Shown here in pieces: positions 14,501 through 20,500 of a stretch of 64,000 nucleotides of DNA. Within the stretch, counting starts at the first letter, position 1, and every line of letters begins with the position of its first letter. The stretch is from Carcharhinus longimanus (taxonomy: Eukaryota). Position numbers: made by a program. The stretch is taken from contig JASCQW010000162.1 in NCBI GenBank assembly GCA_030264375.1, positions 45,106,001 to 45,170,000 on the forward strand, read 5' to 3'.

Positions 14501-17500
14501 TGGACAGCTGGCCCCAAAGCCCAAATGCCCTTCACGGCTCCCTCCCCTCCCCAACCCTCCAACTCACCATGACCTAACCTAACAACCATGCTGCCACCCT
14601 ACCCACCCTGCTACCTGACCCACTTAACTTCATTCACACTCATTCACTAACACATTGAAAGGTTATTTAAATGTCCAAATGTTTTTCAGCTAGTGCTATT
14701 AAAGAGGGGCATAGCTTGGCTTCCCCTGATTACTCTGCATCATGAGGAAGGGCTCCAAGAATAAGTACGCTTCACATTTCTGAAGAGGCCAAGTTTGGAA
14801 GTCCAAGCTAGAAATGCGCAGTTCCATTTTAGTGCAAAAATAAACAGGAGTGGGATAGCAAACCAACGGTGAATGCCACTCCTCAGAAAATTTGGCCCAA
14901 GGTTTCAGGTTTGTGATCTCTCATCAGAACTGGCAGTTGTTAAAAAATATAATAGGTCTTGAGCAAATGGAAGATGTTGAAGGGAGATGCAAGTGGGAAG
15001 AAGAACAGAAGGGAAAATCTGTAATAGATTGAAGGCAAGAGAGATTCAGTGACACAAGGTTTTATGGTGCAAGATCTAAAGGAATGGTAACACGTCAAGT
15101 AATGTCCTTTAGAGGAGGTGTGAATGGCAACAAATTGAATAACTGTTGGTTGAAAGGAAACTGACGAAAATCAGAGCGAATCAAGCAAAACAGAAACAGC
15201 AAAGAAAATTAAAAGACAGAAGGTATGCTGACATTATAATCTAATAATGTTGAAATGAACATTGAGTCCAGAAGACTGCGAAGTGCCCAAAGGATGAGAT
15301 ACTGTTCATTGAACTTGTGCTGAGCTTCACTGCAACAATACAGCAGTCATGATGTGGATGTGCCGGCGTTGGACTGGGGTAAACACGGTAAAAAGTCTGA
15401 CAACACCAGGTTTTAGTCCAACCGATTGGACTAAACCTGTTGGACTAAAACCTGGTGTTGTCAGACTTTTTACAGGATATACTTGCCAGCTCTCCTGCTG
15501 AGACCTGAACAGAGCCTGAAGCATAGAAGTTAAATGTGCCAGTTACCTTCACAGCCACTGGCAGGGATTGGGAGTTGATGGATTATGGCTCCCAGTTGTT
15601 GCTGCGTAGTGTGAAAAATGTCATTCATAACATCATGGCTCAACCTAAGTTTTCTTCAGCACAGGTTTCCTGTAGTGTCCTCAATCTGTGACCTCCCCCA
15701 GAGGGCAGCCTCTCTGCCATAGTGAAAATGTGGATCTATGTGTAACAATCTCAAAATAAGGATTCAGCCAACTAGGACTTGGATGAGGGGGAAATTTCTT
15801 CATTCAAATAATTTAGAATTCTTAACCCATATCACATTGGATGCTCATCATATTCAAGTTAGTCCTTGATAATTTTTTGGATATAATGGAATTAAGGGAT
15901 ATGAGGATAAGTATGAGAAGGTGTAGCTGAGATAGGAGACCAGCCATAACGTTTTTGAATGGCAAAGTAGACTCAAGTAGCAAATGGCCTACTCCCATGT
16001 TGTATGTTCTTATGTTCAAATAAAATCTAACACATACCAGTGGAGAAAGAAAGAGAGAGAAAGTGAGGCAAGAGGAAGAAAGTGTGGGAGCTGGCTGTAT
16101 CTGGGAATTGTTTTTGCTGATGTTCCAATGCCAAAAGAGAACTCTATAAGTGGCCTCCTAAATTTAGAAGCTTAGCACTAATTATAAAAAGTTGACCTGT
16201 CCTAGATAAACAAAAAGAGATGCAACCAAGTTTATATCATTATTTATCAATTGGAATTGATGAGGTAGTCTTGCACCTGGGTGCAGCCCAATAAAAGCAT
16301 TACTCTTTCTCAGAAGTGAAAAATATAAATATAAACGGATCATAATTTTATTTTAATGCAATCCAACACAGGATGGAATATGTTGTTCCAACCCTCGCAG
16401 TTTTATACATAAACATTAACATAATGTACTGCCAAGTTGTAAACAAGGGCATTCTTAGCAGTGGGGAAAATTAAATACACATTAATAAAGTAGGAGGTAT
16501 TTGCTCTGCCTTTATTGGTACAAGATTGTAGCTCTCAGTATTGATATTCTCAAACATGTGTGCGATAAACATTGCACCAAAAGTCTGTTTAAAAGCAGCA
16601 GTTTATTAAATTGAGTTTTGAGCTACTTGAATTTTATAAGTAGAGGAAAGGGGACAACTGACAATAATTATAAACATAATCTGAGTTTCAAGTGACAGCA
16701 GAGATGAGCGCCCGATGAGCCTATTGCTCTGAGGGTATTGGGCACATTAGATCATCTGAAGGCTGTAGTTTACCTATTGGCTTTCCATTGCACACTACTC
16801 TCCCTTAAGATGCGGTTCAATCAATGTTAGTGATAGCAAGATTTCATGTATGTACTTTTTGTTGTTGTTTTAACTGAAGTGCTGGCTGATTTTAAATAAA
16901 TAGACTTGCCTGTCTGTTAGAATGAAGGAATTTAATATGAATGAATTGATCATCAATCATTTAGTTACTAATAGTCAGAAGAGTAGATTTTCTAAATGAA
17001 TGCCCCTGGTGCAGAGCTTTGTGTGGGTAGAATGTATATCAGGAAATGGGGTGTGGAGATCAGTGCACCTTGCATGATTTACCATCCATTATAATCAATA
17101 AACGGAAAATTGTGAGTGCACTGATATCCGTGCCCAGATTCCTAATAGCTTACTCCTACGATATTCTGCACCCTCTCCTTTCCTTCTCTCCCATGTACTC
17201 TATGAATGGTATGTTTTGTATGTATAGCACGCAGGAAACTTCTCACTGTATCCCAATACATGTAACAATAATGAATCAAATCAAATCAAATCAAATACTC
17301 TGCACTAGGAATACTGATTTGTAAAAGTTATCTCAAAGAATTTAGTTTAAGGAGCTAATTCTTACCTTGTTGCCAGCAATTTCAGATTTGATTTTATGAC
17401 ACACACTTGTTACTGTTACTTCTGCCTGGTACTTTGTTTTCTAATAAATAAATAACTCCAAGGCAGCTATTTCTAAAAAAGGAACAACATTCATATAAAA

Positions 17501-20500
17501 ATTTGTCCTTCAGGTGCTTTTTCAAGTTGCTCTGGATGTGTAGAAGAACATGATAACTAAATGGTAAATACCGCACATTAGCACGAACAGGCAGTTATTT
17601 CTAAACTGTGTCAGTAGTTTTAGTCTGTGGTATGTTGAAGCCGTGGAAGACTTATTCACGCTACCAAATTATGGAATGAGAGAGTATGTCTAGAAATTTT
17701 GAAAACACAACTACTGCTACTTTTTGATGCCGGCATACTGGATTCTGTCCAGATTCCCAGGGTTTTGATAGTTTCCAGTTGGACCAAAATGTTTATTAAA
17801 CCAACTTTGTTAAAATAGCCAAATTTGAGATTCAAGACCCTTGCTAAGAGAACAACGCTGCATGATTCCATAGGTGCTGAATAAACAAAAATAAACTTTA
17901 CTATACAAAGTCAGGAAGATAAAATGATTTACAACGCCTATCTTATATCTCATTTTTAGGGTTAACGTGAGGAATGTGTGAATTAACAGGCAAATTGTGG
18001 TCAACCATAACACACTTCACAATCTGTCAGATTTCTCAACAATCTGCCCAAACTTCAGTGTCCACAGTCTGTGAATCAATCTTGTTGAAACTTTTGCAAG
18101 AAATTCCAGTCTTCACCTCAAAGATCTTGCCTTTGAATTCTCTTCAGATGTTGCTCCAACTTGCATTGCCTCAATGATTACTCACCTCTCAGGGTTTCAA
18201 TGTTGTTTCTGAAGGTTATGTTCCCCTGGATTCGAATGCTGCGCTAAAGCCTTTACTTACTGCTGTAATTTCAGCTCTTTAACAAACTGCTGGCTTCATT
18301 GAGTTGGCACTGGCCCTGGATTTCTCTGAACTCCAGAACCCAGCTGGACCTAGCTCTATGTAGCTGCCAGGGCTTCTTCTGAGCCTTAGCTACTTTCAGC
18401 ACAGAGCCAGTGATATCTTCGGCCCTTCAAGACTTCTCAGGACTGAACTGCCTCAAGTCTTTAACAGTAGTACCTTTCTTGCCTGGGGACCTCTTCCTCT
18501 GCTCCTCTCTCTTCTTTTCACAGGGAGATCTCCTTTTTCCCTTTGGGACATCTCCCTGCCCCTCTCTCTGTTCCCTGCCTGGTGTTGTTTTCATTTATGG
18601 TGCTCTGCTTCCAATCGCATGATTCTGTTTTCATGCCATTTTCTTTTAGCACAGATACCCTGGACCTACTCTCAATCTGAGGAATTACAAAACATTGCAT
18701 TGTACATGCCCTTTCCTGTCCCATCCTCTGCATATGCAAAATCCCGTGGTGTGCTTAGAGTTGTAGATCCCACAGTTTCTGTTTGCAGTTTCCACTTTGA
18801 ATAAGGTGGCTTTGGATCTCATATCAACTTTTCCCTTGGGAGAGCGAAAGCTTTACGACAGTGAAAATTTTTTTACCCTCGATTTACAATTCCTTTAGAA
18901 GAAATATTTAACATCATAAGCTTATAATAAATAGCTATTACATCATGCACAGATAATCTTTGGATTTGCAAACTTATAAATAGCATAGAGTCATAGAGGT
19001 TTATAGCATGGAAATGGGCTCTTCGGCCCAACTTGTCCATACTGCCTTTTTTTTAAACCCCTAAGCTAGTACCAATTGGTCGAAAATGCGGGCAATTGCT
19101 TCATTATAATGTTCTTTTAAAGCACCTGATGATCCTACAAAACATATCTTGAGACATAGGACTAACAAGAATGCATGGAAACAGTGCAACCTGCAAGTTC
19201 CCCTCCACCACCCTAACTTCAGACTCTATCGCCTGCCTTTCCTGCACTGTAGCTGGGTCAAAATCCTGGAACTCCCNNNNNNNNNNNNNNNNNNNNNNNN
19301 NNNNNNNNNNNNNNNNNNNNNNNNNNNNNNNNNNNNNNNNNNNNNNNNNNNNNNNNNNNNNNNNNNNNNNNNNNNNTGTCTGAGGCCAGAACTCTCCATT
19401 CACCTGACGAAGAGGGAAACCTCGAAAGCTTGTGCGTTTACTATCAAATAAATTGGTTGGACTAAAACCTGGCGTTGTCAGACTTTTTACAATACAGCAG
19501 GCCAAGGAAAGAAAGGTTAAAGTAAGAGCAAGGTGGAGAATTAAAATGGCAGGCAACAGGAAGCTCAGTGTCATGTTGGTTGACTGAACAGAGGTGATCT
19601 GTGGAGCAGTCATCCAGACTATGTTGGTGTCCCCAAAGTAAAGGATGATCAATGAATACTGTAGACTAAATTGAAAGAAGCACAAAGTAAATCACTCTTT
19701 CACCTGAAAGGATTGTATGGGGCTTTGGAAAGTGAGAAGGGAGGAGATAAAGTGGTAGATGTTGCATCTCCTGCAGTTGTGTAGAAATATATTTAAGAAG
19801 ACATGATCTATATCCCTGCTGTTTTTAAAAATCCATTCTAACTCCTTGTCCATAAGATTTATTAACAATGCAATAAATATTTTACTCACAGAGGGGACAT
19901 ACAAGTAAATAACTAATTGTCCCGTAATGGATAGTTTAAAAATCCTGGGACTCATTATTGACCAGAAACAGGACTTGAGATTTTGTATTGGGGCCTCAAT
20001 GTCAGCATTAAATGGGGGTCTCAACCTGACACAGGGTGGAGATAAGTAACCCAGCAGTGGTTTTTCCAGAATTGGCCATCAAAGGATGGTGGGTGGATTT
20101 TCAAAGCTGGAGGACCAATTGGACACAATAATGGGAGACTGTGGGGTAGCAGTAATGTCACTGGGCGAGTAATACAGAAGGCCAAGATGGGAACATGTGT
20201 CCACCATGGCTTCTGTTTGAATTTAAATTTAATAAATATATCTAGAATTGAAAGCTAGTCTGGGAAATAACGACCATTAAGGTATCATTGATATTTCACT
20301 GATGTCCTCTGGGGAAGAAATCTGCCAGCTGTACCCAGCGAGATCGACATGTGACTCCAAATCCATAGGTCAACTGTAAACTGTCCTCTGAAATGGCCCA
20401 GCAAGCCATTTATTTCAAATGCAAATAGATTTGGGCAATAAATGCTGGCCTTGAAAGAACAAAGTAAATAAAGTAGTAGTAGGCTGCCTCTTCAGTTAAG

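What the first reader, a model, noticed from the sequence alone, without database searches (positions are those of the whole stretch)
15335..19500. Penelope-bounded 4.1-kb cargo insertion: candidate ribozyme-associated transduction of genomic DNA into pax3 intron 4
Seen: an older Penelope-like relic (14899-15346 plus 19491-19785) is split at a duplicated (AC)AATACAGCAG. Between the duplicates lie an inverted terminus with a perfect 35-bp hairpin ending ...GTCAGACTTTTTAC (15473), then about 3.9 kb of unrelated DNA with old repeat debris (CR1 tails near 15790-16015 and 18985-19075, an (ATCAA)n tail near 17277), then a second terminus with a hammerhead ending in the same ...GTCAGACTTTTTAC (19490). 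The two termini share variants absent from the copy at 11.2 kb. Inference: young termini around older cargo suggest that DNA from another locus moved as one unit. That would be a non-autonomous, cargo-carrying Penelope derivative able to shuffle kb-scale non-coding DNA into a developmental gene.
[Added by the scan's program, not by the reader: the finding's places include an assembly gap (unread letters, written N; its length is only estimated) at 19277 to 19376. Whether the letters on both sides are continuous or in frame is not known: test that first.]
Basis: partly seen in the sequence, partly recalled or inferred. Interest (0 to 1): 0.85.

Follow-up and report, generated by a model that had tools for sequence, protein, structure and literature searches.

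The report
Penelope-type insertion carrying non-coding cargo
A roughly 4-kb stretch of non-coding DNA, framed by the end sequences of a Penelope-like retrotransposon and a 10-base target duplication, sits inside an older Penelope relic in a large intron of a shark Pax3/7-type gene; this kind of capture is already described in rotifers, so it is a tidy example, not a new mechanism.

Summary
The sequence features are real. AATACAGCAG occurs only twice in the window (15337-15346, 19491-19500). The DNA outside the two copies rejoins, in register, into one decayed GIY-YIG endonuclease tail of an older Penelope-like element (PLE) on the minus strand. Between them lie:
- a 41-nt "tail";
- a 40-nt inverted PLE 3' terminus;
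- a 42-nt direct terminus;
- 3.8 kb with no PLE coding signal and no match elsewhere in the window;
- a 100-N gap;
- a 114-nt PLE 3' end with a minimal-hammerhead motif.

This is the standard PLE integration architecture around a non-PLE body. The best reading is one retrotransposition event, in trans, of a non-coding RNA ending in a PLE 3' terminus.

The "ribozyme-associated" part is unsupported. Only one terminus holds the motif, its predicted cleavage site lies 59 nt inside the 3' end, and Rfam finds no hammerhead.

Three things could not be tested here: a donor locus, copy number and an orthologous empty site. No eukaryotic genome collection was available. The cargo/3'-terminus junction is hidden in the gap.

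Arkhipova et al. 2013 described the same framing of a host gene and of non-coding sequences in Adineta vaga. I rate this a new member of a known kind, of moderate interest.

The parts
14899..15346 (-). Left part of the older Penelope-like relic that hosts the insertion: the C-terminal end of its endonuclease region plus its 3' untranslated part.
Evidence: The minus-strand translation of 15209-15346 aligns to residues 211-229 of P0002 and 99-122 of P0006. tblastn hit at 15257-15400. Hammerhead-like boxes lie on the minus strand at 14903-14927.
15337..15346 (.). Left copy of the 10-bp target-site duplication AATACAGCAG (12 nt if the preceding AC is counted).
15347..15387 (+). The 41-nt 'tail' extension at the outer end of the inverted terminus.
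   Evidence: 15343-15422 is 86% identical over 80 nt to 11149-11228, the equivalent position in the 11.2-kb copy. Its length and position fit the 30-40-bp PLE tail (PMC8557442 and PMC3846280, passages).
15388..15427 (-). Inverted, 5'-truncated copy of the PLE 3' terminus (40 nt).
   Evidence: 38 of 40 nt match the reverse complement of 19451-19490.
15432..15473 (+). Upstream direct, 5'-truncated copy of the PLE 3' terminus (42 nt; a very short pseudo-LTR). It forms the 35-bp perfect hairpin with the inverted copy.
   Evidence: 38 of 42 nt match 19449-19490, and 34 of the outer 35. Fold.
15474..19276 (+). Non-coding interior ('cargo'), 3803 bp as far as the gap.
   Evidence: No tblastn hit from 49 PLE-type proteins. 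No Pfam family above cut-off in 13 ORFs. No similarity to the rest of the window except one weak 38-nt match. GC is 0.389 and CpG observed/expected 0.22, like the flanks. (AATCA)4.6 at 17274-17296.
19277..19376 (.). Assembly gap of 100 N. It hides the junction between the cargo and the 3' terminus.
   Evidence: The letters were neither filled nor inferred.
19377..19490 (+). Downstream PLE 3' end (at least 114 nt) ending in ...GTCAGACTTTTTAC, with AATAAA at 19447-19452, 38 nt from the end.
   Evidence: 19400-19490 is 81% identical to 11272-11362..
19398..19437 (+). Minimal-hammerhead-like motif: helix I strands 19398-19403 and 19432-19437; CUGACGA 19404-19410; extra A 19411; helix II GAGG/CCUC 19412-19415 and 19420-19423 with loop GAAA; GAAA 19424-19427; palindromic GC 19428-19429; UU 19430-19431.
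   Evidence: My own descriptor hits only here and at 11276-11303 in the window, against 0.005 per shuffle. The minimum-energy fold shows helices I and II, but z = 0.31. No Rfam hammerhead hit.
19491..19500 (.). Right copy of the target-site duplication AATACAGCAG.
19491..19809 (-). Right part of the older Penelope-like relic (endonuclease region).
   Evidence: tblastn gave 40 alignments clustered at 19447-19809 from the 49 query proteins. The translation of 19462-19665 (-) aligns to P0002 residues 163-214 and to P0006 residues 57-110.
11153..11364 (+). Comparison copy: a short PLE insertion without cargo (tail, inverted copy, hammerhead-like core, direct 3' end), flanked by the 12-bp duplication AGCCAAGGGCAG (11141-11152 and 11365-11376).
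   Evidence: (arms 85% complementary over 174 nt).

Best explanation
This is a non-autonomous Penelope-type insertion.

Proposed mechanism: one reverse-transcription event at a nicked target, carried out in trans by the RT/GIY-YIG protein of an autonomous PLE. It copied an RNA at least 4 kb long, whose body is ordinary non-coding sequence and whose last 114 nt or more are a PLE 3' end.

Steps:
1. Priming happened at ...AC/AATACAGCAG inside an older, oppositely oriented PLE relic.
2. After the cDNA reached the 5' end of the body, the enzyme jumped to, or self-primed on, PLE 3'-terminal sequence. This added a 42-nt direct copy, a 40-nt inverted copy and the 41-nt tail.
3. The staggered second cut gave the 10-bp duplication.

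Shown: the duplication, the in-register rejoining of the flanks, the order and identity of the terminal pieces, and the lack of PLE coding signal in the body.

Inferred: action in trans; the order of template jumps; that the conserved AATAAA 38 nt from the end, and not the hammerhead motif, set the RNA's 3' end; and that the body came from another locus. That origin could be a one-off read-through ('5' transduction') transcript into a truncated PLE copy, or a multi-copy non-autonomous family.
For: - The duplication is unique in the window.
- Both flanks map onto the same four residues of PLE-type proteins. LLYC of each flank aligns to P0002 residues 211-214 and to P0006 residues 99-102. The right flank continues upstream and the left flank downstream.
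- Relatives of P0006 are elasmobranch proteins. P0035 carries RVT_1 plus GIY-YIG and P0032 carries RVT_1.
- The layout of tail, inverted copy, direct copy, body and direct 3' end is established.
- The hairpin arms are 35 of 35 complementary, the termini match at 34 of 35 and the duplication at 10 of 10. The arms of the 11.2-kb copy are only 85% alike. The event is therefore relatively young.
- The body gave no hit to 49 PLE-type proteins and no Pfam family above cut-off in 13 ORFs.
- The literature (passages read) gives the same architecture: tail, inverted 5'-truncated copy and partial tandem (PMC8557442; PMC8969392); a 31-bp tail, 8-10-bp duplications, and a host NRPS gene and non-coding sequences captured between pLTRs (PMC3846280).
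Against: - The right junction of the body is hidden by the gap, whose length is probably a placeholder, so PLE sequence or more DNA may be missing.
- No donor, no second copy and no empty orthologous site could be looked for.
- The upstream direct copy differs from the downstream one at 4 of 42 nt, with the differences clustered at its inner end. It is therefore not a simple copy of the same template end.
- The window is a fragmented assembly with 11 gaps. PLE hairpins are known to upset short-read assemblies (PMC8557442, passage).
- The claimed age difference between cargo and termini could not be measured.
Confidence: 0.6

Rival explanations
1. A donor locus held genomic DNA between two PLE termini. 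The unit was transcribed, processed with the help of the hammerhead ribozyme, and moved as a retrozyme-like, ribozyme-dependent cargo carrier.
For: Two direct termini of one subfamily frame the body. A minimal-hammerhead motif sits in the downstream terminus and is specific to PLE termini in this window. One helix II pair differs on both sides between the two copies: A-U at 19.4 kb and G-C at 11.2 kb (sequences).
Against: - The upstream direct and inverted copies stop 42 and 40 nt from the end and lack the motif.
- The predicted cleavage site lies 59 nt inside the 3' end.
- Rfam finds no hammerhead, and the fold is no better than shuffles.
- The cargo-free 11.2-kb copy has the same tail and inverted copy, so these pieces arise at integration.
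- Animal retrozymes are tandem units of 51-972 bp (10.64898/2026.07.22.740005, passages), not 4-kb units.
Confidence: 0.12
2. Assembly artefact. The true insertion is a short PLE copy like the one at 11.2 kb. The 3.8 kb comes from another place, joined through the high-copy, hairpin-forming terminus, or the scaffold join at the 100-N gap is wrong in distance or content.
For: The window has 11 gaps in 64 kb, and this gap is exactly 100 N like one other. The gap's left edge has a weak repeat match and its right edge lies in a repeat. PLE tandem and inverted structures are reported to break short-read assemblies (PMC8557442 and PMC3846280, passages).
Against: The contig reads without interruption from unique flank through the tail, the inverted copy, a unique 16-nt spacer and the 35-nt direct arm into the body. 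A false join would have to rest on 35-42 nt only. The right contig carries the matching duplication and the continuation of the relic, so order and orientation are right.
Confidence: 0.12
3. Two steps. A short PLE insertion made the duplication, and unrelated DNA (nested transposons or repair filler) entered it later.
For: Nested insertions are common.
Against: The later DNA would have to start exactly at the last base of the upstream terminus (15473/15474). That position is where a template-jump junction is expected in a single event. The SINE-like family that is abundant in the window has no copy in the body. No internal duplication could be checked at the right side because of the gap.
Confidence: 0.08
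4. An ordinary autonomous PLE copy whose coding part is hidden in the gap or decayed beyond recognition.
For: The unit length (about 4.0 kb from 15474 to 19490) is in the range of full PLE bodies, 3.4-4.4 kb for Naiads (PMC8557442, passage). The gap length is unknown.
Against: No RT or endonuclease similarity was found in 3.8 kb, while the older, visibly decayed relic next to it is still detected, with 40 tblastn alignments from the 49 query proteins. The termini and duplication are nearly unmutated, so in-place decay of the body is not credible.
Confidence: 0.05

Closest known systems
Penelope-mediated mobilisation of host sequences framed by pLTRs in the rotifer Adineta vaga (Arkhipova, Yushenova and Rodriguez 2013, PMC3846280; passages read)
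   Same: One inverted plus two direct terminal repeats. An optional roughly 31-bp tail at the outer end of the inverted repeat. A palindrome at the inverted junction. An 8-10-bp target duplication. An interior with nothing in common with the PLE. That paper also mentions non-coding captured sequences, and a secondary insertion into another PLE in opposite orientation.
   Different: Here the upstream repeats are only 40-42 nt, against about 180-220 bp. The host is a cartilaginous fish. The cargo is non-coding. No donor copy is known. The right junction is unseen.
Canonical EN+ Penelope-like element insertion architecture (Craig et al. 2021, PMC8557442; Goubert et al. 2022, PMC8969392; passages read)
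   Same: 5' truncation, a partial tandem copy forming a pseudo-LTR, an adjacent inverted 5'-truncated copy, a 30-40-bp tail, and a hammerhead motif in the terminal repeat.
   Different: There is no RT/GIY-YIG ORF in the body, so it is not an autonomous member.
Non-autonomous PLE derivatives: Chlamys non-autonomous families such as MRC1 (PMC8557442, passage) and animal non-LTR retrozymes (PMC7229834, abstract only; 10.64898/2026.07.22.740005, abstract and passages)
   Same: They depend on PLE enzymes, resemble the autonomous element at the 3' end or pLTR, and carry a hammerhead motif.
   Different: Retrozymes are short tandem units, each with its own ribozyme. Here there is one 4-kb unit with a single motif, no tandem array, and unknown copy number.
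5' and 3' transduction by LINE-1 (recalled general knowledge; no paper read here)
   Same: Flanking genomic sequence is co-transcribed with a retroelement end and is reverse-transcribed with it into a new site with a target duplication.
   Different: The enzyme family and end structures differ. There is no poly(A) tail here, and the 5' side carries PLE-specific inverted and direct copies.

Membership tests
Penelope-like element (autonomous, EN+) | A single ORF with reverse transcriptase and a GIY-YIG endonuclease | tested here: not met
   None of the 49 PLE-type query proteins gave a tblastn alignment inside 15474-19276. No RT or GIY-YIG Pfam hit in 13 ORFs. The gap at 19277-19376 is unread.
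Penelope-like element (insertion architecture) | A direct terminal repeat (pseudo-LTR) formed by a 5'-truncated upstream copy | tested here: met
   15432-15473 against 19449-19490: 38 of 42 nt, and 34 of the outer 35.
Penelope-like element (insertion architecture) | An inverted 5'-truncated copy at the 5' side, with a palindrome at the junction | tested here: met
   15388-15427 is the reverse complement of 19451-19490 at 38 of 40 nt. The hairpin is 35 bp and perfect.
Penelope-like element (insertion architecture) | [quoted passage not shown] | tested here: met
   The 41 nt at 15347-15387 recur at the same position in the 11.2-kb copy: 86% identity over 80 nt that include it.
Penelope-like element (insertion architecture) | A short target-site duplication | tested here: met
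   10 of 10 nt, unique in the window. The flanks rejoin in register on PLE-type proteins.
PLE minimal hammerhead (Cervera and de la Pena 2014) | [quoted passage not shown] | tested here: met
   All are present at 19404-19431. The descriptor, written by me from the paper's passages, hits 2 sites in the window, both in PLE termini, against 0.005 per shuffle.
PLE minimal hammerhead (Cervera and de la Pena 2014) | A second copy nearby for the active dimer, and self-cleavage | tested here: not met
   There is only one motif in the insertion, because the upstream copies lack it. Cleavage itself cannot be tested with these tools.
Rfam hammerhead families | A covariance-model score at or above the gathering threshold | tested here: not met
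   No hammerhead family was listed at gathering score or at E up to 10.
PLE-captured host sequence (A. vaga type) | [quoted passage not shown] | tested here: met
   The right junction lies in the gap.
PLE-captured host sequence (A. vaga type) | A parental copy of the interior elsewhere in the genome | not testable with these tools
   No eukaryotic genome collection was available. The window itself holds no copy.
Animal non-LTR retrozyme | Tandem repeats of short units (51-972 bp), each with a type I hammerhead | tested here: not met
   No tandem array: Tandem Repeats Finder lists only 4 short arrays. There is a single motif.

The most novel reading that the evidence does not exclude
Sharks may hold an active or recently active PLE subfamily that routinely picks up and moves kilobase-scale non-coding genomic DNA. 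It would need only about 100 nt of PLE 3' end as the cis signal. That would make PLEs a vertebrate counterpart of Pack-MULE or Helitron-style sequence shufflers, able to seed new non-coding sequence into the introns of developmental genes. This copy would be one of many such carriers.
Probability: 0.15. Interest if true: 0.6.

Novelty: new member of a known kind. Interest (0 to 1): 0.35.

Why it matters
If the assembly holds, this is a clean vertebrate example showing that a short PLE 3' end is enough for PLE enzymes to move several kilobases of unrelated DNA. That bears on how PLE integration works (template jumps, self-priming, the tail). It also bears on how repeat annotators should treat 'orphan' PLE termini. 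It does not by itself show any effect on the Pax gene, because the insertion is antisense to the gene and deep in a roughly 51-kb intron.

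Tried and rejected
- Rfam at gathering score on the whole window, and at E up to 10 on 10800-20200 and on 19377-19520. No hammerhead was found. The only hits are spurious microRNA-type matches to the hairpins.
- A word-based protein search with the right-flank ORF found nothing. The full HMMER search gave 6 hits with E up to 0.001, and I used P0002 and P0006.
- Pfam on the flank ORFs themselves gave nothing. Pfam on P0006 gave GIY-YIG only below cut-off, E = 0.18.
I replaced it with stop-free ORFs.
- Self-BLAST of the body against the window gave no donor and no local duplication.
- Base composition and CpG depletion of the body do not differ from the flanks, so they say nothing about origin.
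- The SINE-like family that is common in the window has no copy in the body. About 0.65 copies are expected, so this is uninformative.
- Rejected: the hammerhead as the determinant of the 3' end, because its cleavage site is 59 nt inside the end.
- Rejected: the two termini as proof of a two-terminus donor, because the 11.2-kb copy shows that the 5' pieces arise at integration.
- The genome-contig scan was not used, because that collection holds bacteria and archaea only.
The supplementary hammerhead family figures of PMC4209133 might bear on how well the shark motif fits.

Full report
**What is there**

I read 14700-16100, 16100-18900 and 18900-19900.

- AATACAGCAG occurs exactly twice in the 64-kb window, at 15337-15346 and 19491-19500. 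With the preceding AC, 12 nt are identical on both sides.
- GTCAGACTTTTTAC occurs exactly three times: 15388-15401 on the minus strand, and 15460-15473 and 19477-19490 on the plus strand. A diverged copy lies at 11349-11362.
- From left to right the insert reads:
  - a 41-nt stretch, 15347-15387;
  - a 40-nt inverted copy of the terminus, 15388-15427, matching the reverse complement of 19451-19490 at 38 of 40 nt;
  - a 42-nt direct copy, 15432-15473, matching 19449-19490 at 38 of 42 nt and at 34 of the outer 35;
  - 3803 bp of other sequence, 15474-19276;
  - 100 N, 19277-19376;
  - a 114-nt end, 19377-19490.
- The hairpin arms are complementary at 35 of 35 positions, around a 16-nt spacer. 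The fold is -71 kcal/mol, z = -10.5.
- The two direct termini share 7 differences from the 11.2-kb copy in their last 27 nt.

**The gap, tested first**

- Nothing coding crosses the gap, so reading frame is not an issue.
- The left edge (to 19276) has only a weak 38-nt match, to 45682-45718. The right edge (from 19400) matches the terminus of the 11.2-kb copy. The two edges share no template in the window.
- The gap is exactly 100 N, like one other gap (25107-25206). The remaining 9 gaps measure 10, 10, 10, 26, 31, 177, 177, 311 and 575 N. I infer that 100 is a placeholder.
- The junction between the 3.8 kb and the second terminus is therefore unseen, and the true length of the insertion is unknown.

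**Do the flanks join?**

The word-based search with the right-flank ORF found nothing. The full HMMER search gave 6 proteins with E up to 0.001.

| Flank (minus-strand translation) | Aligns to P0002 | Aligns to P0006 |
|---|---|---|
| Right, 19462-19665 | residues 163-214 | 57-110 |
| Left, 15209-15346 | residues 211-229 | 99-122 |

- In both proteins the four residues LLYC, encoded by the duplicated bases, map from both flanks onto the same four positions: P0002 residues 211-214 and P0006 residues 99-102. The flanks therefore rejoin in register if the duplication is counted once.
- Relatives of P0006 include proteins of whale shark, zebra shark, bamboo shark, a stingray and skates.
- P0035 has RVT_1 and GIY-YIG, and P0032 has RVT_1. 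P0006 itself reaches GIY-YIG only at E = 0.18.
- The host sequence is a decayed endonuclease tail of an older Penelope-like element on the minus strand. The insertion lies in it in the opposite orientation.

**What the interior is**

- tblastn with all 49 stored PLE-type proteins hit the window at 8264-8592 (+), 15257-15400 (-), 19447-19809 (-, 40 alignments) and 22568-22798 (-). It hit nowhere inside 15474-19276.
- Thirteen ORFs of the interior gave no Pfam family above cut-off. These were the 11 longest (64-146 aa) and two of 55 and 51 aa, out of the 69 ORFs listed for 14500-20200.
- The interior has no similarity to the rest of the window.
- Its GC content (0.389) and CpG observed/expected ratio (0.22) match the flanks (0.407 and 0.20; 0.405 and 0.23).
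- (AATCA)4.6 lies at 17274-17296.
- In-place decay of a coding PLE is not credible. The termini and the duplication are almost unmutated, while the neighbouring old relic is still recognisable.

**Comparison with the 11.2-kb copy**

- That copy (11153-11364) is flanked by a 12-bp duplication, AGCCAAGGGCAG. It consists of the same tail, a 73-nt inverted copy and a roughly 100-nt direct 3' end.
- Its arms are 85% complementary over 174 nt, so it is older.
- It shows that the tail and the inverted copy are made at integration, without any cargo.

**The hammerhead**

- Rfam lists no hammerhead at gathering score or at E up to 10.
- The passages of PMC4209133 describe PLE minimal hammerheads. [quoted passage not shown]
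- All the sequence features are present at 19404-19431.
- A descriptor I wrote from those features hits two sites in the window, 19404-19431 and 11276-11303. Both lie in PLE termini, against 0.005 sites per shuffle.
- One helix II pair differs on both sides between the two copies (sequences).
- The fold is no better than shuffles, z = 0.31.
- The upstream copies lack the motif, and the predicted cleavage site lies 59 nt inside the 3' end.
- I conclude that the motif is a passenger of the terminus and not the agent of the capture.
- A conserved AATAAA lies 38 nt from the end in both copies. I infer that it is the more likely determinant of the RNA's 3' end.

**Comparison with what is known**

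- Passages of PMC8557442 and PMC8969392 describe PLE insertions as 5'-truncated. They often have a partial tandem copy (pseudo-LTR), an adjacent inverted 5'-truncated copy and a 30-40-bp tail. The same passages note that these structures trouble short-read assemblies.
- Passages of PMC3846280 describe, in Adineta vaga:
  - a 31-bp tail;
  - 8-10-bp duplications;
  - palindromes at inverted junctions;
  - an intron-containing NRPS gene lying between two direct pLTRs with one inverted pLTR and an 8-bp duplication;
  - 0.9-1.5-kb host-derived spacers in Pen1.
- The present structure is the same kind of thing, with much shorter upstream repeats, in a cartilaginous fish.
- My searches listed no vertebrate example, but they cover open-access text only.
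- Animal retrozymes (PMC7229834, abstract; 10.64898/2026.07.22.740005, abstract and passages) are short tandem units and do not fit.

**Gene context**

- ORFs at 55758-56156 (-) and 2349-2591 (-) match the PAX and Homeodomain families.
- An octapeptide-like motif lies at 53505-53525 (-).
- The finding therefore lies in the large intron upstream of the homeobox exon of a Pax3/7-type gene, antisense to it.
- I searched the exons one by one. I made no joined model and did not separate Pax3 from Pax7.

**Verdict**

It is most likely one PLE-driven insertion of a non-coding RNA carrying a PLE 3' end (confidence 0.6).
- I rate it a new member of a known kind, interest 0.35.

Noticed in passing
window 11141-11376: A short, older PLE insertion without cargo (tail, 73-nt inverted copy, hammerhead-like core, direct 3' end), flanked by a 12-bp duplication AGCCAAGGGCAG. 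Its arms are 85% complementary over 174 nt.
   Followed up: yes
window 15343-15346 and 11149-11152: Both target duplications end in GCAG directly next to the tail's TCATGA. This may be a target-site preference of this PLE family. With only two sites, it may also be chance.
   Followed up: no
window 14903-14927 (minus strand): The older host relic has its own CTGATGA...GAAA boxes at the position expected for a terminal hammerhead, but it did not pass my descriptor. The alignment to the young terminus is weak.
   Followed up: partly
window 3142-3278, 9939-10219, 22241-22500, 24349-24508, 27563-27943, 28975-29226, 39221-39425, 41494-41895, 46927-47015, 62366-62660: A SINE-like dispersed repeat of about 150-370 bp, with at least 10 copies at 65-87% identity, on both strands. 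None lies in the cargo.
   Followed up: no
window 8264-8592 (+) and 22568-22798 (-): Two further relics with similarity to PLE-type proteins. The first ends at the 575-N gap 8616-9190.
   Followed up: no
window 26483-26555: A 73-nt sequence that is 90% self-complementary. It was not examined.
   Followed up: no
window 2349-2591 (-), 53418-53666 (-), 55758-56156 (-): Exons of a Pax3/7-type gene on the minus strand: the homeodomain, an octapeptide-like motif and the paired domain. The intron that contains the finding is about 51 kb long.
   Followed up: partly
window, 11 N runs: The assembly is fragmented. Gaps measure 10, 10, 10, 26, 31, 100, 100, 177, 177, 311 and 575 N. The repeated round values suggest placeholders and not measured lengths.
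   Followed up: partly
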